Virus genome (UHGV): UHGV-1980310
DNA: 21,283 nt
Reading direction: 5' to 3' (one strand)
Origin: a virus
This document shows positions 3,331-21,283 of the stretch, piece by piece. Position 1 is the first letter of the stretch; the number at the start of each line of letters is the position of its first letter. Both the position numbers and the translations under genes were made by a program. The notes under the pieces are model-generated. The model saw nothing but the letters and a program-made list of their open reading frames with translations. It was not told where the DNA came from and did no database searches.

Positions 3331-3342
3331 ATGAGGTGTTAT

Positions 3343-3597: not shown

Positions 3598-3598
3598 G

Positions 3599-4149: not shown

Positions 4150-4153
4150 TTCC

Positions 4154-4447
4154 ATGAGCAAAGTACGCGTTATTTTTGAATTTAATCATGTTTCGCATGA
4201 CGAAAAGTTGGCAGGCAATGACTGTGTTGAAGTGCATGAAAAGATTGGAGTGGATGTGAAAACAGAACGTGATACGGATAACAGGCCGACGTCACTCTGT
4301 GACGTTTATGCAAGTATTCTCCAGTATCACAGTCCTGCAATTATTCAGTTTCTCTCAGCGGAATTTCAGGCATCTGCACAGTCTTTTGGAGCGGATGCCA
4401 TCATTAAACGCCACCGCGTGCATAAAGCATCAGGCACACTGCAATAA
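4154..4447 (+). CDS. Hypothetical protein; N-terminus paralogous to the previous ORF
   Basis: ATG at 4154 preceded by AGGGG. The first ~30 nt resemble the start of the 3877 ORF. Confidence 0.4.
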   Translation: MSKVRVIFEFNHVSHDEKLAGNDCVEVHEKIGVDVKTERDTDNRPTSLCDVYASILQYHSPAIIQFLSAEFQASAQSFGADAIIKRHRVHKASGTLQ

Positions 4448-4458
4448 GGAAAAACAAA

Positions 4459-4989
4459 ATGGCTAAACGCGTTACAAAATTAAAGGCCGCAGCCGAGGCG
4501 GCACCGCAGACCCGGGAAGAAGTCAGCCGTGATATCCGCACCCTGGGAGATATTCAGCGAGAGGCGCTGCGCCTGGAAACGGCGATGAATGACGAAGTGG
4601 CAGAAATCACCGCCCGTTATACGCCGCAGATTGAAAATCTTAAAAAGCAAATCAAAGTGCTTTTTAAAGGGATTCAGGACTGGTGCAAAACCAACCGTGA
4701 TGAGCTGACGAACGGCGGCAAAACCAAAACAGCCAATCTGACCACCGGAACGGTGTCATGGCGGCTGGGAACGCCATCATGCAGCGTCAGCCGTGATGTG
4801 GAAGGTGTGATTGAAATGCTGCGCCGTATGGGGCTTGAGCGTTTCATCCGCACGAAAGAGGAAGTGAACAAGGAAGCCGTCCTGGCGGAGCCGGATGCTG
4901 TGAAAGGCATTGCCGGTATCAAGGTGAATAAAGGCGCTGAAAGTTTTTATGTCGAGCCTTTTGAACAGGACGCCGGACTGAATAAATAA
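4459..4989 (+). CDS. gam: Gam-like host-nuclease inhibitor (DNA-end binding), 176 aa
   Basis: Size, position after the early small genes, coiled N-terminal region and overall similarity to Mu Gam (~174 aa). AAGGA RBS upstream of ATG 4459. Confidence 0.75.
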   Translation: MAKRVTKLKAAAEAAPQTREEVSRDIRTLGDIQREALRLETAMNDEVAEITARYTPQIENLKKQIKVLFKGIQDWCKTNRDELTNGGKTKTANLTTGTVSWRLGTPSCSVSRDVEGVIEMLRRMGLERFIRTKEEVNKEAVLAEPDAVKGIAGIKVNKGAESFYVEPFEQDAGLNK

Positions 4990-5134
4990 CACCGCATTAA
5001 TCAATTAAATATCACTTCATTTTAATTATGGCGCTCGCGTCAGGGGACTGCTTGCGCCTGAAAACAGAAAATAAGGGTTAAGAAATATGAAATACGTTTA
5101 TATCGTCATTAATAATGTGGTGGGGAAATAAATC

Positions 5135-5668
5135 ATGATTGATGCAAAAGTGCTTGAAGGGGTTAAAAACTGGCTGTGTATTTATGGCCGCCTGACCTGC
5201 GGTGTACTGGCTGAAAAAATGAATATGCCGCCATCCTCCATGGTTTATTTTCTGCGTGATGCGGTTGATGCAGGCGTGCTGACGGAATGTAACGGTTTTT
5301 ATGATATTCCGCGCCCCCGCCCGGTGCAGCCGGTTCGTCGCAAATGCAGCCAGGAATCTGCGGCTGATGATGTTCAGTGGTGCGGCTTCAGAAAATCCCT
5401 GCCATGGATTGAGGGGCATGATATTCCGTCGATGGCGTGGGAATTTGCTCAGGGCGTTCTGACCTGTGAAACCGTTTATGTGGTGGCTGAAGTTGATGAG
5501 CAGGCCATGAAAGAAGGCGTGCCCCAGTTTGTGATGGCGTATATCGACATACGCCTGGGCGTCATTATCTGCGGTTTAAGCGGCTGGAATATCACTGAAC
5601 ATGTTCTGCGCTACCTGATTGTTGACCGGACAGCAGCGCCTGCCGGGATATCTGCGGAGGTGGCGTAA
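5135..5668 (+). CDS. Hypothetical Cys-rich protein with a possible helix-turn-helix segment
   Basis: RBS GGGGAAA upstream of ATG 5135, preceded by an AT-rich intergenic region (4990-5134). Segment LTCGVLAEKMNMPPSSMVYFLRDAVDAGVL looks HTH-like. Function unknown. Confidence 0.45.
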   Translation: MIDAKVLEGVKNWLCIYGRLTCGVLAEKMNMPPSSMVYFLRDAVDAGVLTECNGFYDIPRPRPVQPVRRKCSQESAADDVQWCGFRKSLPWIEGHDIPSMAWEFAQGVLTCETVYVVAEVDEQAMKEGVPQFVMAYIDIRLGVIICGLSGWNITEHVLRYLIVDRTAAPAGISAEVA

Positions 5669-6039
5669 TGTTCTTTAAAACATCAAACCCTTCCGCGCTG
5701 GCTGCGTGGCAAAAATACCAGCAGGACTGCCAGAAAGTTAAGGATGAGGCAAAACGCCTTGAGGCCGTGCTGAATGTTGCGTGCCGGTCGGTATTTGTAT
5801 CCGGTATCAGTGGATTTTGCTTTAAGGGACTGCGTTTTACGGAGGACAAATATCCTTTTCATCGCGACTTATGGCGAAAACCGACTGCGTCGAATGGCGC
5901 TGATTTACAACGTGAACACCCGTGTGGCTTACAATGCCGGGCGTTACACGCAGATGATGAACAACACGGACACGCATCCGTTCTGGCAGTATGTGGCGGT
6001 CATGGACAGCCGTACCCGCCCGTCGCATTCCGCCCTTAA
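5668..6039 (+). CDS. ORF of uncertain status (translationally coupled start, then overlaps the F-like gene in another frame)
   Basis: GGAGG RBS and TAATG overlap with the upstream gene support a real start at 5668, but the frame stays open across the F-like ORF start. May be the 5' part of a frameshifted F gene. Confidence 0.25.
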   Translation: MFFKTSNPSALAAWQKYQQDCQKVKDEAKRLEAVLNVACRSVFVSGISGFCFKGLRFTEDKYPFHRDLWRKPTASNGADLQREHPCGLQCRALHADDEQHGHASVLAVCGGHGQPYPPVAFRP

Positions 6040-6889
6040 CGGTCTGGTATTCCGCTATGACGATCCGTTCTGGAAAACACACTACCCGCCCAATGGCTGG
6101 AACTGCCGCTGCCGTGTGCGGCCATTGTCTCAGGCCCGTCTGGATGCAATGGGGTTATCCGTTTCATCCGGTGAGGATCATCTCTCCACCCGCAATGTTG
6201 AGGCTGGCGTGGATAAACAGACCGGAGAAGTCAGAGAAATGCCGGTGACCACATATTCAGATGGCACCAGAACCATGACACCGGATGTGGGCTGGTCATA
6301 TAACCCCGGCTCGGCAGCGTTCGGCACAGACCAGGCGCTGATCCGCAAACTGATCGAGGTGAAAAGCCCGGCGTTACGGGAAATGGTGGTTCAGGAGATG
6401 AACAACAGCCCGGAGCGGCAGCTGGCGTTCCGCATCTGGGCAAAAAACATCATGCAGACCCGGCGAGGTGGTAACGATATCCGCACGCTGGGCTTTATGA
6501 CTGAAAGCATTGCGCAGGCAGTGGAAAGCCGGACGGGAACGCCACCGGCCCGCCTGCTGGCGATGAGCGGTAAAAATGTGCTCCATGCGGACAGTGTGAA
6601 ACATCAGAATGACGGCATCGCTCTGACGCCGGAGGACTTCGGGCGCTTACCGGCAATGCTGGCAAAGCCAAAAGCGGTACTGTGGGACAAACGGCACAAC
6701 AATCTGATGTATATCGTGGAAAATCAGGATGGCAGTGTGCAGATTGCCGTTAATGCACCGTACAGTCTGAAACGTCAGCCCGACAAACTGGATGTGATTG
6801 TGAATGCTTACCGGGTTATCAATATGGATAAGCTGAAATCGGATATCCGGGGCGGAATGCTTGAGGTGCTGGAAGGACAAATTGATTAA
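5774..6889 (+). CDS. Head morphogenesis protein, Mu F / SPP1 gp7 family; 5' end uncertain
   Basis: Motifs RLRRMALIYNVNTRVAYNAGRYTQM and WQYVAVMDSRTRPSHSALNG are typical of the Mu F domain. ATG 5774 has GAGG ~10 nt upstream. Confidence 0.65.
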   Translation: MLRAGRYLYPVSVDFALRDCVLRRTNILFIATYGENRLRRMALIYNVNTRVAYNAGRYTQMMNNTDTHPFWQYVAVMDSRTRPSHSALNGLVFRYDDPFWKTHYPPNGWNCRCRVRPLSQARLDAMGLSVSSGEDHLSTRNVEAGVDKQTGEVREMPVTTYSDGTRTMTPDVGWSYNPGSAAFGTDQALIRKLIEVKSPALREMVVQEMNNSPERQLAFRIWAKNIMQTRRGGNDIRTLGFMTESIAQAVESRTGTPPARLLAMSGKNVLHADSVKHQNDGIALTPEDFGRLPAMLAKPKAVLWDKRHNNLMYIVENQDGSVQIAVNAPYSLKRQPDKLDVIVNAYRVINMDKLKSDIRGGMLEVLEGQID

Positions 6890-7010
6890 CGGTCAGTGGC
6901 GGGGGTCGAACCCGCATACATGATCCACCCGGAGGCAGGCACCGACTTTACCAGTTAAGCGTACACTGACCGCCTGTTTATTTTATATTCATCCTTTATG
7001 CGGAGGCAAT

Positions 7011-7484
7011 ATGTCATCCATTGATGCCGCTGTCGTTGTTGACGTTACGCGTCTCCAGCGAGTGTTTGCCCGGCTTCAGTTTGTGGGCGGCGGAAAAGAC
7101 CTGGCCCGCAGTGTGGCGGCGAGTCTTCTGTCATCGTCAGAAATGGCGTTTGAGCAGGAAAAAGAGCCGGATGGTGAACGCTGGCATGACTGGTCAGATC
7201 CTTACCGTGAGTGGCGTACCCGTAAGGGATACACGCCCGGCAAAATCCTGACGCTGAACGGCGATCTGGCCCGCCGCCTGACCACGGATTATGGCGATAC
7301 CTGGGCGCTGATTGGATCAAATGAACCTTATGCAGCCATTCATCAGTGGGGTGGCCTGCCTGGTATGCCACCGGGACCGGCGGCCATTGGCGCACGTCCG
7401 TATATGGGCTTTGATCAGGTGGCAGAACAGGAGATCATGGACGAAATCAGAAAACGCTTTAAAAAGGCCACAGAAACGCCGTAA
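7011..7484 (+). CDS. Virion morphogenesis protein, Mu G-like
   Basis: 157-aa ORF directly after the F-like gene with GGAGG RBS; position and size match Mu G. Confidence 0.6.
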   Translation: MSSIDAAVVVDVTRLQRVFARLQFVGGGKDLARSVAASLLSSSEMAFEQEKEPDGERWHDWSDPYREWRTRKGYTPGKILTLNGDLARRLTTDYGDTWALIGSNEPYAAIHQWGGLPGMPPGPAAIGARPYMGFDQVAEQEIMDEIRKRFKKATETP

Positions 7485-7661
7485 TGGTTTAAGGTATGCA
7501 AACGTATTACCTTACCCCCTTCAGGCGCGTGTCGTGATTTTCTAACCTGTATTTAACGGGCTTTAAAATCTGCGTGAAGCGCCTTTCTCATTCCCCCCCT
7601 GTCAGCACTTTCTGAAGTCCCGCAAAACCAGCCCCAAAAATACCCGGCTTATGCTGCCGGT

Positions 7662-8795
7662 ATGAAGACAGAAAATCACCCAAAAGACGCAAATCGCCCC
7701 TCCGGTTTAGCCGTGCTTTCAGCTTCGCTGACTGCATCCGGCGACGGATGGTGTCAGTTACTGCCAGCCGGTCGGGTAAAGGCCCGTGACGGTCGCCCGG
7801 AAAAACCGACTGAAGGCTGGCTGATTAACGAATCCGCCTGTAACCGGATGAAAGCCGGGCTTTCCGCCCTGCATCAGCCGTTACTGATTGATTATGACCA
7901 TCACTCCGTGAATGCGCAGAAAAACGGATTCAAGGCTATTGCTGCAGGATGGGTTAAGCCGGAAAACATCGAATGGCGTGAGGGTCAGGGGATTTTCATT
8001 AAACCTGAATGGACACCACAGGCACAAAAACATATTGATGACCGTGAATATGCCTATCTGTCTGCATATATGCATTATTTCGCTGACACCGGGGAACCCT
8101 ACCTGTTGCGCATGGCTTCCCTGACGAATGATCCGGGTATTACGGGTATGAACCCTGTCGCGGCACTCAGTGCTGATGATCTCTATGTCGTTTCCCCTTC
8201 TCAGGAGCAATCCCCCATGAATGAGCAATTACGCCAGTTGCTGACGGCGCTCGGTCTGACCGTGGCTGACGGTGACGAATTTACACCGGAACTGGGCACG
8301 GCGGCGCTGTCTGCCCTTACCGGGATCAAAACCCGTGCGGATGCGCACGACACCCTGAAAACGCAGGTTGCCAGCCTGTCGGCAGAGCTGGAAACCGCAA
8401 AAGGCACACCAACTGGCGGCACTATTGATCTGACGAAAAACGTGCCCGTTGAGACGTATAACGCCCTGCGTACCGAATATGTCGCGTTGTCGGCACAACA
8501 CGGCAGCACCACGCTGGAGCAGTTGCTGGATAAGGCCGAGTCCGAAGGACGCATTTTCAAAAGCGAACGCGGATACATGGAAGGACTCGGACAACAGATT
8601 GGTGTTGCGGCACTTTCTGCACAGCTTGACGCCCGCCAGCCGGTTGCGGCTCTGACCACTCTTCAGACCGACACCGTAACCGTGCCGGATAAAAAGACCG
8701 CCACCGCTGCGCTGTCGGCTGAAGATATCGCCGCCGCCCATCTGCTGGGTAAAACCGAAGCCGAGTTCCTGAAAATGAAAGAGGAAATGCAATAA
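7662..8795 (+). CDS. Head protease/scaffold protein, Mu I-like
   Basis: 377-aa ORF immediately upstream of the major head gene with a stop/start overlap; Ala-rich acidic C-terminal half typical of scaffolds. Assigned by synteny. Confidence 0.6.
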   Translation: MKTENHPKDANRPSGLAVLSASLTASGDGWCQLLPAGRVKARDGRPEKPTEGWLINESACNRMKAGLSALHQPLLIDYDHHSVNAQKNGFKAIAAGWVKPENIEWREGQGIFIKPEWTPQAQKHIDDREYAYLSAYMHYFADTGEPYLLRMASLTNDPGITGMNPVAALSADDLYVVSPSQEQSPMNEQLRQLLTALGLTVADGDEFTPELGTAALSALTGIKTRADAHDTLKTQVASLSAELETAKGTPTGGTIDLTKNVPVETYNALRTEYVALSAQHGSTTLEQLLDKAESEGRIFKSERGYMEGLGQQIGVAALSAQLDARQPVAALTTLQTDTVTVPDKKTATAALSAEDIAAAHLLGKTEAEFLKMKEEMQ

Positions 8796-9742
8796 TGCCT
8801 ACCCCGATCACACCGGCGATGATCACCGCCCTGATGACGGGCTACCGTTCTGATTTTCAGGCCGGGATGTCCATGGCTCCGTCTCAGTACCAGAAAATTG
8901 CGATGACCGTACCGTCCACGTCGAAATCCAACACCTACGGCTGGCTGGGGCAGTTCCCGCAGTTCCGTGAGTGGATCGGCTCCCGCGTCATCGAGAAGAT
9001 GAAAGCCTATGGCTACGCCATCGTGAACAAAACCTTTGAAGGCACCGTTGCCATTAGCCGCGATGACTTTGAAGACGACAATCTTGGCATCTACTCCCCG
9101 TTGTTCCAGGAGATGGGGCGCGCTGCGGCGGCACAACCGGATGAACTGGTCTTTGCTGCACTGCGTGATGGTCTGAATGCGGCCTGCTATGACGGCCAGA
9201 ACTTCTTTGATACCGAACACCCTGTTTACCCCAAAGTGGATGGCTCCGGTGATGCACAGATGGTCAGCAATATGTTTGTGGCAAAAACCGGCTCTGTCGG
9301 TGCACAGGCGGATTACAGCGGCCCGGCCTGGTATCTGCTTGACTGCTCCCGCGCGGTAAAACCGCTGATTTATCAGGATCGCCGCAAGGCCGAACTGGTT
9401 GCCCAGACAAAAGTCGATGAAGGCCGTGCGTTTACTGATAACGAGTTTGTGTTCGGTGCTTCCGCCCGTCGCAATGTGGGCTACGGCTTCTGGCAGATGG
9501 CCTACATGATGCAGTCACCGCTGACGCTGGATGCGCTGTGGCACGGCTGGTCAGCCATGCGTGACTTTAAGGCTGACGGTGGCCGCAAACTCGGCATCAA
9601 ACCCACCCATATTGTTGTCCCCACCTCGCTGGAAAAACAGGCGGTGCAGCTGCTGGAGCGCGAGCTGTTCGCGGACGGTAACACCACCGTCTCTAACGAG
9701 ATGAAGGGCAAGCTGGAGCTGGTTGTCGCGGATTATCTGTAA
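8795..9742 (+). CDS. Major head (capsid) subunit, Mu T-like
   Basis: 315 aa, follows the I-like gene with TAATG coupling; size and position match Mu gpT. Confidence 0.65.
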   Translation: MPTPITPAMITALMTGYRSDFQAGMSMAPSQYQKIAMTVPSTSKSNTYGWLGQFPQFREWIGSRVIEKMKAYGYAIVNKTFEGTVAISRDDFEDDNLGIYSPLFQEMGRAAAAQPDELVFAALRDGLNAACYDGQNFFDTEHPVYPKVDGSGDAQMVSNMFVAKTGSVGAQADYSGPAWYLLDCSRAVKPLIYQDRRKAELVAQTKVDEGRAFTDNEFVFGASARRNVGYGFWQMAYMMQSPLTLDALWHGWSAMRDFKADGGRKLGIKPTHIVVPTSLEKQAVQLLERELFADGNTTVSNEMKGKLELVVADYL

Positions 9743-9785
9743 ACGGTGAGCCGGGCTTACGGCCCGGCCCCTGCGGAGGGCAAAT

Positions 9786-10145
9786 ATGAATGAACATCAC
9801 ACTGTGGCAGCAACAGATGATTTAGGCCTTCAGGTCAGTGGTGACAGTCCTGTCACGGTACTGGCAGAAGTGCGTTGCAGTCGTGCGCAGTTTCGTCGTG
9901 CGGGGTTCCTGTTCATGCGGGGACGCCAGCAGGTTGACGTCACCCCGGAGCAGCTTGCCCGACTGGAAGCGGAGCCATGCCTCACTGTACGAATACTACA
10001 GACGCCTGGTGATGATGCGGGAGCCGTGGCGGGTGTGGTTCATGCAGAGACCGGTGCAGATTTAGCCGAAGCCGAAACCGTACAGGATGCTCCCCGGAAA
10101 AAGACCGGCAATAACGCCAGACAGGCGAAAAAGGCGCGCGCATGA
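9786..10145 (+). CDS. Hypothetical head/neck protein
   Basis: GGAGGG RBS; first gene of a tightly coupled block (ATGA overlaps) between the capsid gene and the putative sheath gene. Confidence 0.45.
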   Translation: MNEHHTVAATDDLGLQVSGDSPVTVLAEVRCSRAQFRRAGFLFMRGRQQVDVTPEQLARLEAEPCLTVRILQTPGDDAGAVAGVVHAETGADLAEAETVQDAPRKKTGNNARQAKKARA

Positions 10146-10561
10146 ATTACGCCACCGAAACCGATATGCGGGCACGTTACCGCGAGGATTTGCTCAGGCC
10201 ATTACTGGCCGTGCCCCGTTCGGATGAACCGGACACGCGCAAGCTGAACCGGGCACTGACGGACGCGTCTGCCCTTATCGACAGCTATCTGTCTTCCCGT
10301 TACACGCTGCCGCTGGCGGTGGTTCCGGCGGTCCTTGTTCAGCATTGCTGCACGATTGCCTTTTATTACCTGTGCGATCAGCGGGCATCCGATCAGGCGC
10401 GTGACCGTTACCGTGAGGCGCTGGCCTGGCTGAAAGATGTCATGAACGGTAACGTGCCGGTCGGCGTGGATACAGACGGTGCGGCCCCTGAATCCGGGGA
10501 TTTACCGCAGGTGCAGTCTGATGCGGCGGTGTTCGGGCGCAACCAGAAGGGCTTTATATGA
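10142..10561 (+). CDS. Mu gp36-like (DUF1320-type) head-tail joining protein
   Basis: ATGA overlap with the upstream gene; ~140 aa; N-terminus and position are consistent with Mu gp36 homologues. Assigned from memory of the family. Confidence 0.45.
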   Translation: MNYATETDMRARYREDLLRPLLAVPRSDEPDTRKLNRALTDASALIDSYLSSRYTLPLAVVPAVLVQHCCTIAFYYLCDQRASDQARDRYREALAWLKDVMNGNVPVGVDTDGAAPESGDLPQVQSDAAVFGRNQKGFI

Positions 10562-11121
10562 TTACGGAAACCGAACAGGCATATATCACCCGTATTCGTG
10601 AGTATTTCGGGAATGAACTGGTGTCTGTTGACACACATCCCGGCGACTGGAGCGACAGCGTGCTGCGCACCATGCTGATTAACGCCCCGGCTATCTATGT
10701 TGCCTGGCTGGGTGCCGGTGAAGGGCGTACCCGTGGGCGTCTGGTCAGTCACTGGGTGTTCTACGTCATCGGCGACATGCTCAATGGCCGTGAGGTCAGC
10801 CGTCCCGGGCTTTATCAGATTGTGGCCCGCCTGATTACCGTGCTGGACGGCTTCAGAGCAGAAAAAACCTCACCGCTTTACTTTGAAAAGGCGGTCAACG
10901 GTTACACCGAAACGCAGGCAGGCAGCGGTGCCGTGATGTACGCCCTGTATTTCTCATGCGAGGAAATGATCGACCCGCTGACGGATATCAGCTCGCTGGA
11001 TGATTTCCTGCGCCATTACGAAACCTTTACCGAACCGGAAGGCACGCCGGAATTTAAGGCACACATCCGTCTGCCTGGTGCAACTGCCGCCGGTGAAAAC
11101 GCCGGACTGTCAGAGGAATAA
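10558..11121 (+). CDS. Mu gp37-like protein
   Basis: ATGA overlap with the upstream gene; size and position match Mu gp37. Confidence 0.45.
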   Translation: MITETEQAYITRIREYFGNELVSVDTHPGDWSDSVLRTMLINAPAIYVAWLGAGEGRTRGRLVSHWVFYVIGDMLNGREVSRPGLYQIVARLITVLDGFRAEKTSPLYFEKAVNGYTETQAGSGAVMYALYFSCEEMIDPLTDISSLDDFLRHYETFTEPEGTPEFKAHIRLPGATAAGENAGLSEE

Positions 11122-11124
11122 CAG

Positions 11125-11403
11125 ATGACAACCATTTTTATTAAACCTGCGCCGGGATGCCTGATCCGCGATCCCGACACGATGACTCCGCTCTCTCAGG
11201 ACGGGGAAGAGAAACCCTTCACTCCGTTCTGGTGCCGCCGTCTTAATGATGGCGACGTCATTGTGGTGGATAAAACGGCGGAGCCTGCCCCGGCTGCCAC
11301 AACAGGTAATACCGGCGCGGCGGCAAAACCAGCGGGAGCGGCAGCAGAAAAAACTGCGGCGGTGGCTGAAAAAACCGCAGCATCAGATAAGGGGACGTCC
11401 TGA
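11125..11403 (+). CDS. Mu gp38-like small protein with Ala/Thr-rich low-complexity C-terminus
   Basis: 92-aa ORF in the gp38 position; repetitive AAEKTAA motifs at the C-terminus. Confidence 0.4.
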   Translation: MTTIFIKPAPGCLIRDPDTMTPLSQDGEEKPFTPFWCRRLNDGDVIVVDKTAEPAPAATTGNTGAAAKPAGAAAEKTAAVAEKTAASDKGTS

Positions 11404-13025
11404 TGATTAACTTTGATTATATCGGCGATAACAATCGCATTCCGCTGGTACAGATTGAAATCAATAATTCAATGGCCGTGACCGGCACTCCACCACAGCG
11501 TCAGGCGGTACTGTTGTTTGGTCAGGCTGCAATGAAAGACACCACCATTCAGGGGCGCGGTCAGCTTGATGTACCAGTACGTATTACCCGAGCTTCACAA
11601 GCAAGAGAACTCTGGGGGCGAGGTTCCATGATTGCACTGATGGTAGAGGAATTTATCGCCATTAACCCTGACACAGAGTTATATGCCATTGCACAGGGGG
11701 CTGGAACAGGTCAGTCCAGGGCATGCGTGATGAATATCATTGGAACAGCATTGGCAGACGGGGTGTTAAGTGTTTACATCGGCGGTCGCCGTTACCTCCT
11801 GCCCGTCAGTAAGGGGAAAAAAGGTAAAGAGCTTGTGGAAGAGCTGGCTAAGGTCATTAACGCTGACACTGATGCGCCATTCACTGCTATCGCAGCTGAA
11901 GTCAGTGGTGATAATGCTGAAGGACTTAAAGGCAGCATGGGGGTTAACGCCCGCTTTATCGGTGAATGCTCAGCTCATGATTTACGGGTGAACTATTATG
12001 ACGGTGAAACTACACCGGCCGGTCTTACGCTGGAGCTCGTCGCGCCAACACAGAAGGCAACAAACCCCGATATCACCCGTAGCGTCTCAGGGATGGGGAA
12101 TCGTCAGTACAACTACATCGTCATGCCCTATAAGGATGCGGCAAATCTCAAAATTCTGGCGGATGAACTGCTGAAACGCTGGGGACCGGTAAAAATGTCG
12201 GACGGTATGGTCTGGATGGCGCATACCGGCACCTTCGGTACGGCAACCAGTTTTGGTGAATCCCGTAATGACTTCCTGTTTACCTGCACTTCTATTCCTA
12301 AAGCACCAGAGCCGGATTATGTCTGGGCGGCCTCCATTTGTGCGGTCTGTGCGCCCTCCCTGTCAACGGATCCGGCCCGACCATTACAGACACTGGCGCT
12401 GCCTGCCCGTATGGCACCTGAAGCACCAGCTCGTCTGACGCGGGAAGAGCGAAACAGCCTGCTTTATACCGGCATGTCCACGGTGACCGTCGCGGCCGCT
12501 GACATGGTGCAGATTGAACGTCAGGTGACGATGTACCGTCAGAATGCATACGGCGAAAGCGATCCCAGCTATCTGGATGTGGAAACCATCTACACCCTGT
12601 CATATCTGCGTTATTCCCTGCGCACCTTTATCACGCAACGTTTTCCGCGCCATAAACTGGCTGATGACGGGACGCCTGTTCGTGCAGGTCAGAATATCGT
12701 GACGCCGGAGATCATGAAACTTCAGTTAATTTCGCTGGGTGAAGAATGGGTGGAGCTGGGACTGGTCGAAAATCTGGACACCTTTAAAAAGAATCTGCTC
12801 GTGGAGCGCAACACAAAAGACCGTAACCGTCTGGATGTGATGTGTACACCGGATCTGGTTAACCAGTTCCGCTTCATGGCCGCGCACCCGGATTACGGCA
12901 CGTTAAATGTGCTGATAAACAGCTTTGAAAGTCGTTATAACGCTGCTGAACAGGGCGTGGTTGAGTTCACCATTAATGTCACGCCGGTAAGTGATGATAT
13001 CTGGGGTTACCGGAATGTGATATGA
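11403..13025 (+). CDS. Putative contractile tail sheath protein (Mu L position), 540 aa
   Basis: Large ORF in the sheath position after gp36-38-like genes, with TGATG coupling. Assigned by synteny only. Confidence 0.5.
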   Translation: MINFDYIGDNNRIPLVQIEINNSMAVTGTPPQRQAVLLFGQAAMKDTTIQGRGQLDVPVRITRASQARELWGRGSMIALMVEEFIAINPDTELYAIAQGAGTGQSRACVMNIIGTALADGVLSVYIGGRRYLLPVSKGKKGKELVEELAKVINADTDAPFTAIAAEVSGDNAEGLKGSMGVNARFIGECSAHDLRVNYYDGETTPAGLTLELVAPTQKATNPDITRSVSGMGNRQYNYIVMPYKDAANLKILADELLKRWGPVKMSDGMVWMAHTGTFGTATSFGESRNDFLFTCTSIPKAPEPDYVWAASICAVCAPSLSTDPARPLQTLALPARMAPEAPARLTREERNSLLYTGMSTVTVAAADMVQIERQVTMYRQNAYGESDPSYLDVETIYTLSYLRYSLRTFITQRFPRHKLADDGTPVRAGQNIVTPEIMKLQLISLGEEWVELGLVENLDTFKKNLLVERNTKDRNRLDVMCTPDLVNQFRFMAAHPDYGTLNVLINSFESRYNAAEQGVVEFTINVTPVSDDIWGYRNVI

Positions 13026-13351
13026 CCGGCGCAACCATTCAGGAGCGTCAGCGTTATGCCGGGAATAAATACCGGATGAAACCCTCTCTTAACCGTGAAT
13101 TTTATATCCGGTTTGCGGCAGAGTTTGGTTATGAAATAGATATTCAGCCATCACCGGATTCACAGTGGGTCAGTATTGTCACGATTAACAGTGAAACCGG
13201 CTACCGGAATATGAATGTGCTGGATGATATTCTCACGCCGCTGCGTATTTATGAAGGCGGTGCGCTGGAATGTATTCTGAACCGTTATAAGCCTGCATGG
13301 CAGACGTTTATTTACGTGTATGCAAACAGCCATGAAGAGGAGACTATTTAA
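13022..13351 (+). CDS. Short DUF2313 / Mu gp48-like protein, apparently only the C-terminal half
   Basis: C-terminal motif [14 protein letters not shown] and central [13 protein letters not shown] resemble YmfQ / Mu gp48-family proteins, which are ~190 aa. Sits directly upstream of the tail fibre gene as gp48 does in Mu. Recollection-based. Confidence 0.4.
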
Positions 13352-14241
13352 TGTTTCATGTTGATAATAATTCCGGCGTGGCGAATATGCCTGCGCTGGC
13401 ACCAGCGCAGAGTAATACCACCACCTGGTTTACCGAAGGTGACGGACAAAAAGGTATCAGCTGGATTGGTCAGGACTGGCTGAATATTCTCCAGGCCGAA
13501 CTGCTGAATATTCTGGCTGAAGCCAGTATTCAGCCGGATAAGGCGCAGTTAAACCAGCTTACGCTGTCCATTAAAGCCATTATCGCTGCGAATGCCTTTT
13601 CCCGGAAAAATAACCTGAAAGAAATTGCTGATGCCGGTGCGGAGGCCCAGCGTCTGGCCCGTGGTTATCTTGGTCTGGGGACGCTTGCCACAAAAAACAG
13701 TCTTGGTCCCGCTGACGTTAATGCCCTGGCGAAGGATCAGAATCTCGCCGACCTAGAGAATAAGGGAACCGCCCGTAATAATCTGGATGTTTACAGCAAA
13801 AGCGAAGGTGATAACCGTTACCTGCGCAGGGAGCAGAACGGCGCAGACATTCCGGATAAAGGGGCTTTTATCGATAACGTCGGTTTACGGGAAACGGTAA
13901 ACAGGGCGGCGAATGCTCTGCCATCGGACGGCACCGCCGTTGCCGCGAATAGACTCGCCACCCCAAGAAATATTAATGGGGTTCCCTTTGACGGGACGCA
14001 GGACATAAACATCACTTCTGGTATAACACAGCAGGATGCGGATTCCCGATATATCCAGGATATCAGGCTGGGAGCAGAGAACAGGCAGGTAATGTACGGT
14101 GGGGCATATTACTCTGCGTACGGTAATGTTATGGCAGGCCTGCAGATTGACAGTAAAGTTGATGCTTCAAACGATTTTATAGCATTCAGACCCCTGCAAA
14201 AATTAGTCGGAGGTACATGGATTACGGTATCTCAGTTATAA
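13351..14241 (+). CDS. Tail fibre protein (Mu S / P2 H type); constant N-terminus fused to variable C-terminal cassette Sv in the current orientation
   Basis: C-terminus [29 protein letters not shown] and [12 protein letters not shown] are hallmark P2 H / Mu S motifs. The gene spans the left crossover site at 13868-13893. Confidence 0.8.
13868..13893. repeat. Left crossover site (gix/hix-like 26-bp imperfect palindrome) of the invertible segment
   Basis: TTATCGATAACGTCGGTTTACGGGAA; its inner half is identical to the inner half of the right site and resembles Gin/Hin-family recombination sites. Confidence 0.6.
13881..14005. repeat. Left arm of ~120-bp imperfect inverted repeat flanking the invertible segment
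   Basis: Reverse complement of ~15075-15197 matches this stretch with a few mismatches (for example GGCGGCGAATGC(T/C)CTGCCATCGGACGGCACCGCCGTTGCCGCGAA). Confidence 0.65.
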
Positions 14242-14845: not shown

Positions 14846-15197
14846 TTATATACTTGCAGCCGTCACCCATGCTCCATTTAACAGATACTGCAACGGCCGG
14901 TAATACACGCCGCCGACGTTATCTGCCGTATTCTTACCGACATCCTGTACTTTAATTCCGGTAAGAACATTGCCGCCCCCCAGATTCAGATCCCAGCTTT
15001 CCCATGTTCCGGGCATATGTGCGGTCACCGACCCCAGTCTTATGGCGGTTACTGTTCCTGATGAGATAGTGATATCCTGCGTCCCGTCAAAGGGAACACC
15101 ATTAATTGTGTGGGCATTTGCCAGCCTGTTCGCGGCAACGGCGGTGCCGTCCGATGGCAGGGCATTCGCCGCCCTGTTTACCGTTTCCCGTAAACCG
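14846..15197 (-). other. Alternative tail-fibre C-terminal cassette (S'v), promoterless and inverted; would fuse to the constant part of S after inversion
   Basis: Minus-strand frame is open from the right crossover site down to the stop at 14846. It encodes ...[25 protein letters not shown]... (shared with Sv) then a divergent end ...YRPLQYLLNGAWVTAASI that parallels the Sv terminus. Confidence 0.7.
15075..15197. repeat. Right arm of ~120-bp imperfect inverted repeat flanking the invertible segment
   Basis: See left arm; the antisense shadow ORFs of the two arms translate to near-identical peptides. Confidence 0.65.
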
Positions 15198-15210
15198 AGG
15201 TTTTCAGGAA
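15185..15210. repeat. Right crossover site (gix/hix-like) of the invertible segment
   Basis: TTCCCGTAAACCGAGGTTTTCAGGAA, in inverted orientation to the left site; lies ~65 bp upstream of the invertase gene. Confidence 0.6.
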
Positions 15211-15275: not shown

Positions 15276-15847
15276 ATGCTGATTGGGTATATCAGGGTGT
15301 CAACAAATGACCAGAATACGGCGCTACAAAGAAATGCGCTGGAATGTGCAGGATGTGAGCTGTTTTTCGAAGACAGAATAAGCGGTAAGACAAGGGAGCG
15401 TCCCGGACTTAAACGCGCATTAAAGCGACTCCGGCCAGGGGATACCCTGCTGGTCTGGAAACTGGATCGCCTTGGACGCAGTATGCAGCACCTTGTCCTT
15501 TTAACAGAAGAACTCCGGCAACGCGGCGTTAACTTCCGCAGCATTACGGACAATATTGATACATCCACTCCCATGGGACGTTTCTTTTCCATATAATGGG
15601 CGCGCTGGCGGAAATGGAGCGGGAACTCATTATTGAACGTACACGCGCGGGTCTTGCTGCTGCCCGTGCTCAGGGGCGTCATGGCGGCAGACCTCAGAAA
15701 CTGACAGAGAAAGAGCGGGAGCAAATCGCCCGTTTGCTGGCTAATGGCGAGTCCCGTAAACAAATCGCACTGATATTTGATATTGGCCTTTCCACCCTTT
15801 ATCGTTATTTTCCTGCCTCACCAGCTCCGTCACCAAAAGTACCGTGA
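15276..15847 (+). pseudogene. gin: Gin/Hin/Pin/Cin-family serine DNA invertase, disrupted by a 1-nt frameshift
   Basis: N-terminal ORF (15276-15596, catalytic motif GYIRVSTNDQ) ends ...MGRFFSI*; the next frame continues MGALAEMERELIIERTRAGL... through the C-terminal HTH. Invertases read ...GRFFFH(V/I)MGALAEMERE, so one T is missing from the T-run at 15585-15588. Confidence 0.8.
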
Positions 15848-15932: not shown

Positions 15933-17987
15933 ATGTCAGACTCCAAGTGGAAAATGCTCTCCGCCATGCCCGGAGAGTTTTCAGTCAAGGTTGCCGGTGG
16001 CACGGCGGCATTTATTGAAAGCCCTTTCCGCCCTTCGGGTAATAAAGGGGGGATCACCTTCGCAGACTGCGTGATCCGCTTCAGCACGAAAGAGCCATTA
16101 TGGGTAATGCCGGTATCCGGTAATCCCAGTGCAGAAATCACCAGTTCAGGCGTGACTGGCATCATTCCAATCACATCTGACGTGGCCGGAACGCTCACGC
16201 CCTCCGACTGGAATGCACCGGATAACGCCGGGCCTTCCGGTAGCACGAATGGCAGCAGTTCAGAGCCGGAATATTACTTTGTTGTCATTCTCGCGGGTCA
16301 GTCAAATGGCATGGCCTACGGCGAGGGGCTGCCGTTACCGGATTCGTTTGACCGCCCGGACCCACGCATTAAGCAACTGGCACGCCGCAGTACGGTAACG
16401 CCCAACGGTACGTCGTGTACATACAACGACATCATTCCGGCAGACCACTGCCTGCATGATGTTCAGGATATGAGCGGGATAAACCACCCGAAAGCTGATC
16501 TGGCAAAAGGCCAGTACGGGACTGTCGGTCAGGGGTTGCATATTGCCAAAAAACTGCTTCCCTATATCCCACAGAATGCCGGGATACTTCTGGTGCCCTG
16601 TTGTCGTGGCGGGTCAGCATTCACCACTGGAGCCGACGGCTCATTCAGTGAGGCCAGCGGTGCTTCCGCTGATTCTTCACGCTGGGGGGCCGGTAAACCT
16701 CTGTATCAGGACCTGGTAAGCCGCACCAAAGTCGCGCTGGCGAAAAACCCGAAAAACAAACTTCTGGCTGTGGTCTGGATGCAGGGAGAGGCAGACCTTG
16801 CCTCAGGAAGCCAGCAGCATAATAGTTTATTCACGGCCATGGTTCAGCAGTTCAGAACTGACCTGGCTCCGCTTGCTGCGCAGTGCGTGAGTGGAAATGC
16901 CACCACGGTGCCGTGGATTTGCGGTGATACCACGTATTACTGGAAAAACGCTGGCACCGATAAATATGAGGCAGTATACGGTGGCTACAAAGGCAAGGAA
17001 GCACAGAAAATTTTCTTTGTACCGTTCCTGACGGATGAGAATGGACAGAGCACGCCAACGAATGCTCCGGCGGAAGACCCGGATATTGTGGCTGTCGGGT
17101 ATTACGGTGCAGCATCCCGAACCCAGGGCAGTTTTGTTTCGACACAGCGTGACAGCCATTTCAGCTCATGGGCACGCAGGGGCGTCATTTCAGACCGTCT
17201 GGCCTCAGCTATTATGCTCCATGCAGGGCGCACGGCTGAACTGATGCGCGGGCAGACCGTGACACCACCGGATGAGAAGCCGTCACCTGATACACCATCA
17301 AAACCGTCCACGCCACCCGCAGACACCACGACGATGAGTACGCTATTTGCTTACCGGGCATCTGAGTCTGAAGGACGGTTGACACCACAGGGTTGGGCTG
17401 CCGGAGGTGGCAAGGCTCAAATCGTGGATGATGCCGGAGCCAGCGGGGGTAAGGCAATGAAACTGACCAAGGAAACAGGAAGAGCCCCCTGGTACCTTGA
17501 GCATGATGCTGGTAATGGTGCGGACCTGCTGGGTAAAGGTGGTCTTGTCAGTTGTCGTTTTAAACTCGATGGCGCGCTTACGGCTAATCAGTACGCACTG
17601 GCGCTGTACTGGCCGGTTTCTGCCCTGCCGCAAGGGGTTACTCTGGAAGGAAATGCCGGTCATAACCTGCTGGCATCGTTCTACGTACAGAGCGATGCCA
17701 CAGACCTTAACGTGATGTATCACAAAGGAAACACGGCGCAGAACACGAAGCTGGGGTCATTCGGCGCATTTAATAACGAATGGCATACGCTGGGCTTCCG
17801 TTTTGCCGGTAACAACAGTATTGAGGTGACGCCGGTCATTGATGGTAAGGACGGGACACCATTCATGCTGTCGCAGTCTCCGGTCGGCACGTTTACGGCA
17901 GACAAGTTGCGCGTGACCGATATCACTAAAAATGCGACTTACCCGGTACTGATTGACAGTATCGTGGTGGAAGTGAATAACGCGTAA
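15933..17987 (+). CDS. Putative SGNH/SASA-family O-acetylesterase (NanS-p-like) with a Pro/Thr-rich linker and C-terminal ~210-aa domain
   Basis: Motif VVILAGQSNGMAYGEG (nucleophile Ser, nt ~16296-16307) and downstream WMQGEAD match the sialate O-acetylesterase family. Linker PPDEKPSPDTPSKPSTPPADTTT at ~17265-17335 separates a C-terminal beta-rich domain. Confidence 0.6.
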   Translation: MSDSKWKMLSAMPGEFSVKVAGGTAAFIESPFRPSGNKGGITFADCVIRFSTKEPLWVMPVSGNPSAEITSSGVTGIIPITSDVAGTLTPSDWNAPDNAGPSGSTNGSSSEPEYYFVVILAGQSNGMAYGEGLPLPDSFDRPDPRIKQLARRSTVTPNGTSCTYNDIIPADHCLHDVQDMSGINHPKADLAKGQYGTVGQGLHIAKKLLPYIPQNAGILLVPCCRGGSAFTTGADGSFSEASGASADSSRWGAGKPLYQDLVSRTKVALAKNPKNKLLAVVWMQGEADLASGSQQHNSLFTAMVQQFRTDLAPLAAQCVSGNATTVPWICGDTTYYWKNAGTDKYEAVYGGYKGKEAQKIFFVPFLTDENGQSTPTNAPAEDPDIVAVGYYGAASRTQGSFVSTQRDSHFSSWARRGVISDRLASAIMLHAGRTAELMRGQTVTPPDEKPSPDTPSKPSTPPADTTTMSTLFAYRASESEGRLTPQGWAAGGGKAQIVDDAGASGGKAMKLTKETGRAPWYLEHDAGNGADLLGKGGLVSCRFKLDGALTANQYALALYWPVSALPQGVTLEGNAGHNLLASFYVQSDATDLNVMYHKGNTAQNTKLGSFGAFNNEWHTLGFRFAGNNSIEVTPVIDGKDGTPFMLSQSPVGTFTADKLRVTDITKNATYPVLIDSIVVEVNNA

Positions 17988-18610: not shown

Positions 18611-18690
18611 AAACCGGTGGTGTCCTCTGCCGGTTTGACACTAATGAAAACATCTTTGCCGCTATCCAGCCATATGTAATCGCTGGATAG
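18611..18690 (+). terminator. Two hairpins in the convergent intergenic region (candidate bidirectional terminators)
   Basis: AAACCGG-N12-CCGGTTT (18611-18636) and CTATCCAGC-N11-GCTGGATAG followed by TATTTCGTATT (18662-18690). Confidence 0.4.
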
Positions 18691-18771
18691 TATTTCGTAT
18701 TCAGAAATATAGCTGCTTATGGAGCAGTCAATCCTGCTTCCCCATCCGGGCAGGCAAATGAACCGGTATCA

Positions 18772-19065
18772 TTAGTCCGATTCACGCTTTTGTAGAATCG
18801 TTCCCAGAATGCTATACAGCTCATTAGCCTGTTGCTCCATCATTGAGACGGAGGCTATACGGTGCAAAGTGATTTCAGGAGGTGGCACACCTCCATCTTC
18901 TTGCTGTGGAGGAAAAACATAAGATTTAATAAAAAAGTTGAAGCATATGAACTCTCCCGCACTCGAACTGTATTTGCAGGCATCTGAATAATCGGAAAAA
19001 TAATCATTATAGATTTCCGCATTTTCAATCATTTTTCGATTTCTCGTCGTTACATGATTGTCCAT
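18772..19065 (-). CDS. Hypothetical 97-aa protein, opposite strand to the rest of the prophage
   Basis: AAGAGG RBS immediately upstream of the ATG; AT-rich promoter-like region at 19066-19200. Only clearly reverse-oriented gene inside the prophage. Confidence 0.5.
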   Translation of the reverse strand: MDNHVTTRNRKMIENAEIYNDYFSDYSDACKYSSSAGEFICFNFFIKSYVFPPQQEDGGVPPPEITLHRIASVSMMEQQANELYSILGTILQKRESD

Positions 19066-19184
19066 AGCAGCCTCTTACGCTGGCAATTAACCAATTGACT
19101 TCTATAAATTAGTTGATTTGTTTGCTTTGCGGTATTCAAATGTACAATCATTCAGCACTTATGCGTTACAGCACCGTTTAAAAT

Positions 19185-19282
19185 TAGTGATCAAACTCAT
19201 AAATTTTCGCTAATGACATTTCGTGTTATTTGTTGTATCAATTAAATAAATCAAATCGATCGTTTTTGTCGATCGATTGAGT
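19185..19282 (+). promoter_or_regulatory. Putative Dam-methylation-sensitive mom regulatory region
   Basis: Three GATC sites (19189, 19258, 19271) within ~85 bp upstream of com; the last two sit in a palindrome AATCGATCG-N7-CGATCGATT. Confidence 0.4.
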
Positions 19283-20333: not shown

Positions 20334-20336
20334 GCG

Positions 20337-20552
20337 CTATAACTGGCTGATGTTTTGCGCCAGCAACACGCCATCCAGCGACGGAATATTGATATCCAGA
20401 AAAATGGCGTCGACGCGGTTATGCTGCAAAAACTTCAACACGTCCAGACCGTCGTCAAAGGTGCCGACAATCTCCATCTGGCTGTGCTCTTTAATTAGCC
20501 AGCTCAGTTCCTGTTGTGCCAGGAATTCGTCTTCAACAATGATGACTTTCAC
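20337..20552 (-). pseudogene. ypdB: Host LytTR-type response regulator (ypdB-like), 5' fragment truncated by the prophage insertion
   Basis: Encodes (M)KVIIVEDEFLAQQELSWLIKEHSQMEIVGTFDDGLDVLKFLQHNRVDAIFLDINIPSLDGVLLAQNISQ then L*: the receiver domain is cut at ~residue 72. Identity as ypdB (versus paralogue yehT/btsR) is from memory. Confidence 0.6.
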
Positions 20553-20566: not shown

Positions 20567-21283
20567 TCAAAGCAATAACGTAGCCTGTGAGGCGACTGGG
20601 GTGCGTTGGTTAGGAATGTAAAACGCAATTTCCGTCCCCGGCTCCAGGCGGCGGATATGCAGCCCCTCGCCATACAATAACTTCACGCGATGATGGACAT
20701 TCAGCAGGCCAATTTTATTGCCCGGCATTTCATTCGCTTCGACCCGCTCAATCACCTTTGGATCGATGCCGTGCCCGGTATCTCGCACCGCAATGCGTAC
20801 CCGATTTCCGCACTCTGCAACGCTGATGGTGACAACGCCTTTACCTTTGCAAGGCTGAATACCGTGGACAATGGCGTTCTCCACCAACGGCTGGATCAGC
20901 AGGCTGGGAATGCAGCAATTCACCTCTTCATCAATATCATAGATAACCGTCAGCTTGTCACCAAAGCGGGCCTGCTCAATGGCAATATAGTCTTTAATTT
21001 GATACAGCTCTTTTTTGATATCGATTTGCTCATCGTCTTTTAATTCAATGCTATAGCGCAGATAACGCGACAGATTAAAGATCAACTGGCGAGCGGTATC
21101 CGGATTCAGACGGATTGACGATGAAATAGCGTTCAGAGCGTTAAACAGAAAATGGGGATTAATTTTGCTTTGCAGGGCGCGAAGCTCTGCCTTATTTGCC
21201 ATTTCACGTAGCTGCTCGGCGCGTGAAACCTCCAGTTGCGTGGAGATGATTTGCGACAGACCGACCGCCATTTCCTGTAATGA
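20567..21283 (-). CDS. ypdA: Host LytS-type sensor histidine kinase (ypdA-like), 3' part; continues beyond the window
   Basis: Histidine kinase motifs [10 protein letters not shown] (H-box) and ATP-binding region ([23 protein letters not shown]); sits immediately upstream of the response-regulator fragment. Confidence 0.65.

What the first reader, a model, noticed from the sequence alone, without database searches (positions are those of the whole stretch)
12990..13360. Second internal deletion: tail tube, tape measure and baseplate genes absent between the sheath-position gene and the tail fibre
Directly after the 540-aa sheath-position ORF comes a 109-aa ORF that looks like only the C-terminal half of a DUF2313/gp48-type protein, then the tail fibre gene. 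Tail tube, tape measure and baseplate genes (about 8-9 kb in Mu) are not present. The ATGA start/stop coupling at 13022-13025 is preserved, so either the deletion endpoints happened to create a coupled junction or this compact arrangement is native to an unusual element.
Basis: partly seen in the sequence, partly recalled or inferred. Interest (0 to 1): 0.55.

Follow-up and report, generated by a model that had tools for sequence, protein, structure and literature searches.

The report
Deletion scar in decaying Mu-like prophage
The missing tail genes are a real 7.7-kb deletion scar in a dead Mu-like virus embedded in the E. coli gene ypdB, which is ordinary prophage decay that RefSeq already flags as pseudogene fragments.

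Summary
The 540-aa ORF (11403-13025), the 109-aa ORF (13022-13351), the fibre gene (13351-14241) and the ATGA overlap (13022-13025) are all there, and no tube, chaperone, tape-measure or baseplate gene occurs anywhere in the window.

The window is a defective Sp18/Mu-like prophage inserted in E. coli ypdB. Intact relatives 98-100% identical in the flanks carry 7,732 bp more at this point.

The scar has two junctions, not one:
- J1 (12885/12886, 2-bp overlap CA) fuses sheath codon 494 in frame to codon 84 of the gp43 (DNA-circularisation) gene.
- A 115-bp gp43 island follows (12885-12999).
- J2 (12998/12999, 2-bp overlap TA) joins the island out of frame to gp48/YmfQ codon 70.

The 540-aa protein is therefore a chimera of 494 sheath, 38 gp43 and 8 out-of-frame residues. 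The 109-aa ORF is exactly residues 78-186 of the intact 186-aa gp48.

The ATGA lies inside gp48 sequence and is present unchanged in the intact gene, so the "coupling" is accidental.

The same scar occurs in three complete genomes and at least 23 contigs, in ypdB wherever the host flank is visible. This points to one inherited event followed by further decay. A native compact arrangement is rejected. Interest is low.

The parts
11403..12886 (+). Tail sheath gene fragment, codons 1-494 of 500; the last 6 codons (QIRFIL) and the stop are lost
   Evidence: 98.2-98.9% nucleotide identity to the intact sheath genes of FORC_069 and JE86-ST05 up to 12886. Pfam PF04984 and PF17482 hits. 49% identity to Mu L. 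PGAP pseudogene 'missing C-terminus' in TOE17.
12885..12886 (.). Junction J1: 2-bp microhomology CA; 3,323 bp missing relative to FORC_069 (sheath 3' end, tube, chaperone, tape measure, gp43 codons 1-83); in frame
   Evidence: Base-by-base extension against L004. Frame arithmetic from the L004 CDS coordinates.
12885..12999 (+). 115-bp island: codons 84-121 of the gp43 (DNA circularisation protein / Mu N) gene
   Evidence: 100% identical over 115 bp to the 'DNA circularization protein' gene in about 197 E. coli genomes. PHROG 20901 and 184 hits at aa 494-532. PGAP pseudogene missing both ends.
12998..12999 (.). Junction J2: 2-bp microhomology TA; 4,409 bp missing (rest of gp43, gp44, gp45, gp46, gp47, gp48 codons 1-69); out of frame
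12998..13351 (+). 3' fragment of the gp48/YmfQ baseplate wedge gene, codons 70-186 plus stop
   Evidence: tblastn gives 100% identity to aa 70-186 of FORC_069 YmfQ. PGAP pseudogene 'missing N-terminus'.
11403..13025 (+). 540-aa chimeric ORF: 494 aa sheath + 38 aa gp43 (HPDYG...VSDD) + 8 aa out-of-frame gp48 (IWGYRNVI)
   Evidence: Translation compared with intact proteins. The exact protein is indexed in 45 collection blocks.
13022..13351 (+). 109-aa ORF starting at internal Met78 of gp48; a by-product of ORF calling on the truncated gene
   Evidence: 110/110 positions (stop included) identical to the tail of the intact gp48. Matches Mu gp48 residues 79-175 of 180.
13022..13025 (+). ATGA overlap: accidental, pre-existing inside the intact gp48 gene
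   Evidence: FORC_069 reads ...GTGATATGACCG... at the same place in its intact gene; JE86-ST05 reads ATGGCC.
13351..14241 (+). Tail fibre gene, intact, whose 3' part lies in the invertible segment (context)
   Evidence: PHROG 1833 hit at 4e-129. Inverted repeats and gix-like sites.

Best explanation
This is a deletion scar in a decaying Sp18/Mu-like transposable prophage that sits in the E. coli response-regulator gene ypdB.

Shown:
- Relative to intact relatives, 7,732 bp of the tail module are missing.
- The loss is bounded by two junctions with 2-bp microhomologies (CA at 12885/6, TA at 12998/9).
- A 115-bp internal piece of the gp43 gene is stranded between them.
- J1 is in frame and J2 is out of frame. 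The sheath reading frame therefore runs through the island, goes 8 codons out of frame into gp48, and stops at the first TGA. That TGA overlaps gp48's internal Met78 codon. This produces the 540-aa chimera, the 109-aa stub and the ATGA.

Inferred:
- The joins were made by homology-independent (illegitimate, microhomology-mediated) recombination. This could be end-joining of breaks or replication template switching.
- I favour one complex event over two successive deletions, at roughly 60:40. Two independent deletions landing 115 bp apart is improbable, and no one-junction intermediate was found.
- The products are probably non-functional and poorly expressed. The prophage also lacks the Mor-family late activator, the lysis genes, terminase and portal, and every partner of the sheath.
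- The scar arose once, after insertion in ypdB. It has been inherited vertically while siblings lost more DNA.
For: - Intact gene order and 98-100% identical flanks in FORC_069, JE86-ST05 and STEC2018-553.
- Junction sequences and microhomologies.
- Chimera composition, and the 109-aa ORF equal to gp48 aa 78-186.
- The island is 100% identical to the gp43 gene in about 197 genomes.
- No tube, TMP, baseplate, Mor, lysozyme, terminase or portal homologue in the window.
- PGAP annotates three pseudogene pieces in TOE17, AST46 and DLI.5a.
- Both junction k-mers are present in all 9 sibling loci outside the window's own record.
- The exact 540-aa protein occurs in 23 contigs read. In every place shown it is followed by the 109-aa ORF, and it lies in ypdB wherever the flank is visible.
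- A 5-bp target duplication AACTG is present, and removing the prophage plus one copy restores the ypdB reading frame.
- Only 3 of 5,426 complete genomes have this insertion, and all three carry the scar.
- E. coli is reported to make large deletions at micro-homologies (PMC4872102, citing Chayot et al. 2010). Prophage degeneration by deletion is well described (PMC6379469).
Against: - No ancestor with the intact prophage in ypdB was found. The pre-deletion state is inferred from relatives inserted elsewhere, and no single one of them is the closest in all three pieces (the phage family is mosaic).
- The single-event versus two-event question is not resolved by any data here.
- Non-expression is inferred from Mu biology, not measured. 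A weak GGAA lies 6 nt upstream of ATG 13022, so the 109-aa stub could be translated if a transcript exists.
Confidence: 0.93

Rival explanations
1. Two successive, independent simple deletions (3.3 kb and 4.4 kb) happened to leave 115 bp between them, rather than one complex event.
For: This prophage lineage demonstrably accumulates many separate deletions, with at least 6 other distinct junctions. Each of J1 and J2 looks like an ordinary 2-bp microhomology join.
Against: No one-junction intermediate was found in 5,426 complete genomes, in the 23 contigs read, or in the viral and metagenome scans. The chance that a second random deletion ends within about 115 bp of an earlier junction in a prophage of roughly 30-38 kb is under 1% (my estimate).
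Confidence: 0.37
2. The compact sheath-gp48C-fibre arrangement is native to an unusual element, such as a satellite or a tail-less derivative that borrows tails from a helper.
For: The reading frames stay open, and the ATGA overlap looks like translational coupling. The element keeps MuA, MuB and both ends.
Against: The pieces are mid-gene fragments 98-100% identical to intact genes. The ATGA lies inside the intact gp48 gene. The arrangement exists at one insertion site only. Terminase, portal and lysis genes are also gone. Siblings keep losing more, including part of the chimera itself.
Confidence: 0.01
3. The remnant products are retained because they are useful. For example, a sheath with a foreign C-terminus or a gp48 C-terminal stub could poison tail assembly of superinfecting Mu-like phages.
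For: The 540-aa sequence is identical in many samples. The lost residues QIRFIL align with the conserved C-terminal motif (AAQVQF) of Mu L. By general knowledge of contractile sheaths, the C-terminal arm links subunits, so an altered one could be dominant-negative.
Against: The identity follows from the exact-match look-up and from recent common descent, not from demonstrated selection. AST46 and DLI.5a have deleted the first 179 codons of the chimera. No late activator gene remains to drive expression.
Confidence: 0.03
4. The junctions are assembly artefacts.
For: None specific. Short-read contigs do break at the nearby 143-bp inverted repeat.
Against: Identical junctions occur in three complete genomes from different laboratories and countries, and in independent ENA and Logan assemblies. 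Overlaps of 2 bp cannot cause false joins in k-mer assemblers.
Confidence: 0.01

Closest known systems
Sp18-type Mu-like prophages of E. coli (Sp18 of O157:H7 Sakai; intact copies in FORC_069, JE86-ST05, STEC2018-553)
   Same: Same phage family. MuA is 96% identical to Sp18 at nucleotide level. The head, tail and fibre genes that remain are in the same order and 98-100% identical. The element has an invertible fibre segment, Com/Mom genes and a 5-bp target duplication. Sp18 is described as predicted intact (PMC2669165).
   Different: This copy lacks 7.7 kb of tail genes. A separate earlier-region deletion removed the Mor-family activator, the lysis genes, terminase, portal and the MuF N-terminus. 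The copy is 21.6 kb, against about 37 kb for Mu.
Bacteriophage Mu (Muvirus mu) tail module L-M-gp41-gp42-N(gp43)-P(gp44)-gp45-gp46-gp47-gp48-S
   Same: Collinear gene order. The sheath is 49% identical to L, and the 109-aa stub is 51% identical to gp48 residues 79-175.
   Different: Only distantly related in sequence. Mu is complete, and its fibre and cargo genes differ.
Degenerating ('grounded', cryptic) prophages such as DLP12, e14, Rac and Qin, and the defective Sakai prophages
   Same: Progressive loss of structural and lysis genes by internal deletions, and vertical inheritance at a fixed site (PMC6379469, PMC2669165).
   Different: Here the decay is young enough that every breakpoint can be read to the base against near-identical intact relatives. 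The element is a transposable phage rather than a lambdoid one.
Microhomology-mediated illegitimate recombination / alternative end-joining in E. coli (Chayot et al. 2010, as cited in PMC4872102), and replication template-switch (MMBIR/FoSTeS-type) complex deletions
   Same: Junction overlaps of 2-4 bp and kilobase-scale deletions. A short stranded island between two joins is typical of template-switch or fragment-capture events.
   Different: The mechanism was not tested here. The strong excess of TA at junctions in this lineage is not, to my knowledge, a described feature of these pathways.

Membership tests
Mu-like transposable prophage (Sp18/Mu type) | DDE transposase MuA plus AAA+ MuB at the left end | tested here: met
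   The 696-aa ORF (1-2091) has HTH_Tnp_Mu_1 and Mu-transpos_C hits, and the 310-aa neighbour has Phage-MuB_C. PGAP names agree.
Mu-like transposable prophage (Sp18/Mu type) | Insertion by transposition with a 5-bp target-site duplication, at varied chromosomal sites | tested here: met
   AACTG flanks the prophage, and removing the prophage plus one copy restores the ypdB frame. The same left end occurs at many different loci in other genomes.
Mu-like transposable prophage (Sp18/Mu type) | Mu-order morphogenesis genes (I, T, gp36, gp37, DUF2635, L ... gp48, S, U), invertible fibre segment, Com/Mom | tested here: met
   Pfam hits for Mu-like_Pro, Mu-like_gpT, Gp36, Gp37, DUF2635, sheath and Gp48. 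gix-like sites and inverted repeats. Com and Mom genes.
Mu-like transposable prophage (Sp18/Mu type) | Complete set of genes for a virion (terminase, portal, tube, tape measure, baseplate, lysis, late activator) | tested here: not met
   tblastn of an intact relative's proteins finds none of these in the window. It is a defective derivative.
Contractile tail sheath (Pfam PF04984 + PF17482) | Both sheath domains above the gathering score | tested here: met
   116.6 and 76.9 bits against cut-offs of 31.4 and 26.9.
Contractile tail sheath (Pfam PF04984 + PF17482) | Native full-length protein including the conserved C-terminus | tested here: not met
   The last 6 residues (QIRFIL) are replaced by 46 foreign residues. 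These residues align with the end of Mu L.
gp48 / YmfQ / DUF2313 baseplate wedge protein (PF10076) | Full-length match above the Pfam gathering score | tested here: not met
   30.0 bits against a 37.4 cut-off, with only profile positions 66-147/150 covered. It equals aa 78-186 of the intact 186-aa protein.
Translationally coupled gene pair (ATGA overlap) | The overlap marks a gene boundary that is conserved in intact relatives | tested here: not met
   In FORC_069 the same ATGACC is Met78-Thr79 inside gp48. In JE86-ST05 it reads ATGGCC, so there is no TGA.
Native compact element / phage satellite | The same arrangement found at independent insertion sites or in diverged relatives | tested here: not met
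   The junction sequences occur only in the ypdB lineage. There were no matches in the viral or metagenome contig scans.

The most novel reading that the evidence does not exclude
The deletions in this prophage lineage may not be random illegitimate recombination. They may be products of one specific, recurrent break-and-join process. Six of the eight junctions read to the base cross at TA (TA, TA, TA, TA, TAAC, GTAC), although TA makes up only 4.5% of dinucleotides. Three different deletions (5.3, 8.6 and 11.1 kb) start at the same base inside MuA (window 843-845, GGGTA) and end at GGG(N)TA sites. J2 of this finding would belong to that class, and the J1-island-J2 scar would be a single complex event of the same process. 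Candidates include staggered cuts by a topoisomerase, a nicking enzyme or a transposase, or end protection by the phage's Ku-like Gam protein. The pattern was noticed post hoc and in few events.
Probability: 0.12. Interest if true: 0.45.

Novelty: already known. Interest (0 to 1): 0.12.

Why it matters
For genome annotation, the 540-aa and 109-aa ORFs should be treated as pseudogene debris, not as a novel long sheath or a small baseplate protein. The element should not be counted as an inducible phage. Beyond that it is a clean, base-resolved example of how a transposable prophage decays: one early tail deletion, followed by a ladder of further losses in descendants. The recurrent breakpoint and the TA-biased junctions seen in passing are the only parts that might repay more work.

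Tried and rejected
- Native or satellite arrangement: rejected because the arrangement is tied to one site and consists of mid-gene fragments.
- Search for one-junction intermediates or an intact ypdB ancestor: none in the E. coli complete genomes. There were 0 hits for the J1 and J2 k-mers in viral contigs and 0 for J2 in metagenome contigs.
- Invertase-mediated deletion as the cause of the TA junctions: the gix-like sites of this phage have a GA/TC centre, not TA.
- A hairpin or pause site at the recurrent breakpoint near 843: folding is no better than for shuffled sequence, with z-scores of 0.3-0.4.
- An IS element at the recurrent breakpoint: no extra DNA is seen at any junction. The related JMF1 copy does have an IS903B-associated deletion, but elsewhere and at another insertion site.
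- tRNA in the window (intact relatives carry a 'tRNA-OTHER' annotation): ARAGORN finds none.
- Literature on a ypdB Mu-like prophage: no paper found.
- Structure prediction and large protein-database searches were not run, because the comparison with intact relatives was already decisive.
Full report
**Observation**

The ORF map shows a 540-aa ORF at 11403-13025, a 109-aa ORF at 13022-13351 and a 296-aa ORF at 13351-14241, all on the + strand. The sequence reads ...GTGATATGACCGG..., so the ATG at 13022 overlaps the TGA at 13023-13025.

Pfam places both sheath domains in the 540-aa protein. The 109-aa protein gets only a sub-threshold Phage_Mu_Gp48 hit, covering profile positions 66-147 of 150. 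PHROGs agrees and adds a detail. Residues 1-495 of the 540-aa protein are tail sheath, but residues 494-532 hit two other families, one of them annotated 'baseplate hub'. The long ORF is not a plain sheath.

**Where the window comes from**

The region is identical over 2,839 bp to E. coli TOE17, and the whole window is 99.97% identical to it. In TOE17 it is a Mu-like prophage that splits the response-regulator gene ypdB. Window coordinate equals locus L002 coordinate minus 1598.

The prophage is flanked by a 5-bp duplication, AACTG. Removing the prophage and one copy of the duplication restores a continuous ypdB reading frame. The same left end occurs at many unrelated loci in other genomes. 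Both facts fit insertion by Mu-type transposition. The transposase gene is 96% identical to that of prophage Sp18 of O157:H7 Sakai, which the literature describes as a predicted-intact Mu-like prophage (PMC2669165).

RefSeq's PGAP annotation of TOE17 already marks three adjacent pseudogene pieces at this spot: sheath 'missing C-terminus', a 114-bp piece missing both ends, and a piece 'missing N-terminus'.

**Anatomy of the scar**

Intact relatives in FORC_069, JE86-ST05 and STEC2018-553 carry this order: sheath, tube, assembly chaperone, tape measure, DNA-circularisation protein (gp43/N), gp44, gp45, gp46, gp47, YmfQ (gp48), fibre. This is the same order as in Mu.

Aligned to FORC_069, the window matches in three pieces:

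| Window | FORC_069 region | Identity |
|---|---|---|
| up to 12886 | sheath gene | 98.4% |
| 12885-12999 | inside the gp43 gene | 100% |
| from 12998 | inside the gp48 gene | 98.1% |

Base-by-base extension gives a 2-bp overlap CA at J1 (12885/12886) and a 2-bp overlap TA at J2 (12998/12999). The missing stretches are 3,323 bp and 4,409 bp, 7,732 bp in all.

- J1 joins sheath codon 494 to gp43 codon 84 in frame.
- J2 joins gp43 codon 121/122 to gp48 codon 70 out of frame.

The 540-aa product is 494 sheath residues, then 38 gp43 residues (HPDYG...VSDD), then 8 out-of-frame residues (IWGYRNVI). The intact sheath has 500 residues and ends in QIRFIL. This corresponds to the conserved end of Mu L.

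The 109-aa ORF is 100% identical to residues 78-186 of the intact 186-aa YmfQ. It aligns to residues 79-175 of the 180-aa Mu gp48. In all 15 matching phage records the match lies inside a gp48-position gene or an inserted Mu-like region, not a 109-aa gene.

The 115-bp island is 100% identical to the gp43 gene in about 197 E. coli genomes.

**The ATGA**

The ATGA lies 24 nt downstream of J2, wholly within gp48-derived sequence. FORC_069 has the same ATGACC in its intact gene, coding Met78-Thr79. JE86-ST05 has ATGGCC there.

The TGA is an out-of-frame triplet. It becomes a stop only because J2 shifts the incoming frame. The ATG is simply the first start codon an ORF finder meets in the gp48 frame. 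The apparent translational coupling is an accident of the deletion, not a preserved or designed boundary.

**What else is missing**

tblastn with proteins of the intact relative finds none of the following in the window: tube, chaperone, tape measure, gp44-47, the Mor-family activator, lysozyme, terminase or portal. A separate upstream deletion is at 5895-5898, with a 4-bp overlap TGGC inside a 9/11 imperfect repeat. It accounts for the loss of the late activator, the lysis genes and the packaging genes.

The prophage is 21.6 kb, against 36.7 kb for Mu. By analogy with Mu, whose late promoters need phage activators (my knowledge of Mu, not tested here), the remnants are probably poorly transcribed.

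**Distribution and history**

Only 3 of 5,426 complete E. coli genomes carry the ypdB insertion: TOE17, AST46 and DLI.5a. All three have both junctions.

The exact 540-aa chimera is indexed in 45 blocks of the large assembly collection. In the 23 contigs read (7 places shown), it is followed by the 109-aa ORF in every place shown. Wherever the left flank is visible, the host context is ypdC and the ypdB fragment. Both junction k-mers are present in every sibling locus.

The scar therefore arose once, after insertion, and is inherited vertically. Siblings then lost more DNA by different deletions:

| Window coordinates | Locus | Junction overlap | Deleted (bp, relative to the window arrangement) |
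|---|---|---|---|
| 3775 to 8677 | L011 | TA | 4,903 |
| 843 to 9482 | L012 | TA | 8,640 |
| 843 to 6156 | L013 | TA | 5,314 |
| 845 to 11945 | L005, L006 (AST46, DLI.5a) | TAAC | 11,103 |
| 3707 to 6012 | L014 | GTAC | 2,308 |

The 845-to-11945 deletion removes the first 179 codons of the chimera itself. That argues against selection to keep the chimera.

**Mechanism**

- Shown: the junctions have only 2-bp overlaps, and no insertion sequence or extra DNA lies at them.
- Inferred: the joins come from homology-independent recombination. E. coli is reported to produce large deletions at micro-homologies by an alternative end-joining route (PMC4872102, citing Chayot et al. 2010). Deletion-driven degeneration of prophages is well documented (PMC6379469).
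- Open: whether J1 and J2 formed in one complex event (template switching, or capture of a fragment during break repair) or in two steps. I lean to one event, at about 60%. Two independent deletions ending 115 bp apart is improbable, and no one-junction intermediate turned up in the complete genomes, the contigs, or the viral and metagenome scans.

**Alternatives rejected**

- A native compact element is excluded. The pieces are mid-gene fragments, the flanks are near-identical to intact phages, and the arrangement is tied to one site.
- An assembly artefact is excluded by identical junctions in independent complete genomes and independent assemblies.
- A domesticated function for the chimera or the stub is not excluded but has no support.

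**Things seen in passing**

Six of eight junctions in this lineage cross at TA, although TA is 4.5% of dinucleotides. Three different deletions share one left breakpoint inside MuA, at GGGTA. Their right ends all read GGG(N)TA. The pattern was noticed after the fact and rests on few events.

Two simple explanations were tested and not supported. The phage's gix-like sites have a GA/TC centre, not TA. There is no significant hairpin at the hot spot.

The invertase gene has a -1 frameshift in a T-run, shared by all siblings whose invertase region is in the fetched DNA. Even so, the invertible segment is found in both orientations among them.

A near-identical phage in strain JMF1 sits in rhsD and lost its middle through an IS903B-associated deletion.

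**Verdict**

The anatomy is two junctions with a stranded gp43 island, a chimeric 540-aa ORF and an accidental ATGA. This is ordinary prophage decay, already flagged as pseudogenes in RefSeq, and interest is low.

Noticed in passing
window 843-845 (inside MuA); partner sites 6156, 9482, 11945; also 3775/8677 and 3707/6012; loci L005, L006, L011-L014: Sibling copies of this prophage carry five further, different deletions. Three of them share the same left breakpoint (…GGCCGGGTA|AC…), and their right ends all read GGG(N)TA. Across the lineage, 6 of 8 junctions cross at TA (TA x4, TAAC, GTAC), although TA is 4.5% of dinucleotides. This suggests a recurrent, sequence-biased break or join process. 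The cause is unknown.
   Followed up: partly
A truncated hypothetical gene (5668-5898) is joined to a MuF/minor head gene lacking its first 110 codons (5888-6889). The join has a 4-bp overlap TGGC inside a 9/11 imperfect repeat. It removes gp16, the Mor-family activator, the lysis genes, terminase and portal.
   Followed up: partly
window 15276-15847 (frameshift at the T-run 15585-15588); invertible segment 13863-15214; gix-like sites 13868-13893 and 15185-15210: The Gin-like invertase gene is split by a single -1 frameshift (T5 to T4) and is otherwise 100% identical to the intact FORC_069 gene. All siblings whose invertase region was fetched share the frameshift. Yet the fibre/assembly segment is in one orientation in the window, TOE17, AST46 and L008, and in the other in DLI.5a and L009. 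Possible causes are inversion in trans by another invertase, recombination between the 143-bp repeats, or slippage in the T-run.
   Followed up: partly
L015 (E. coli JMF1, NZ_CM139231.1) 18731-34821: A near-identical phage, with the same protein accessions for repressor, Ner, MuA, MuB, Gam, Com and Mom, is inserted in rhsD instead of ypdB. An IS903B-family element stands where everything from the late early-region genes to the start of the fibre gene should be. This is an independent route to the same kind of tail-less remnant.
   Followed up: no
window 20336-20340 and beyond (prophage right end at 20340); ypdA on the - strand at 20567-21271: The prophage interrupts ypdB, the response regulator of the YpdA/YpdB pyruvate-sensing two-component system, with a 5-bp duplication AACTG. 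The host lineage is therefore a natural ypdB knockout.
   Followed up: partly
window ~6890-7010; L001 9494-9573 and L004 10013-10092: Intact relatives carry a PGAP 'tRNA-OTHER' annotation on the minus strand between the MuF and G-like genes. ARAGORN finds no tRNA anywhere in the window.
   Followed up: partly
window 15933-17987: A 684-aa protein with a SASA/SGNH-type carbohydrate esterase domain and a C-terminal DUF6645. It is conserved intact in every sibling and relative examined. It is probably cargo or a host-range-related gene of this phage family, and its function is unknown.
   Followed up: no
window 7911-8129 and 18636-19213: These short stretches have no nucleotide match to FORC_069 or JE86-ST05, although their flanks are 95-99% identical. 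They look like mosaic patches, inside the protease gene and near the right-end cargo genes.
   Followed up: no
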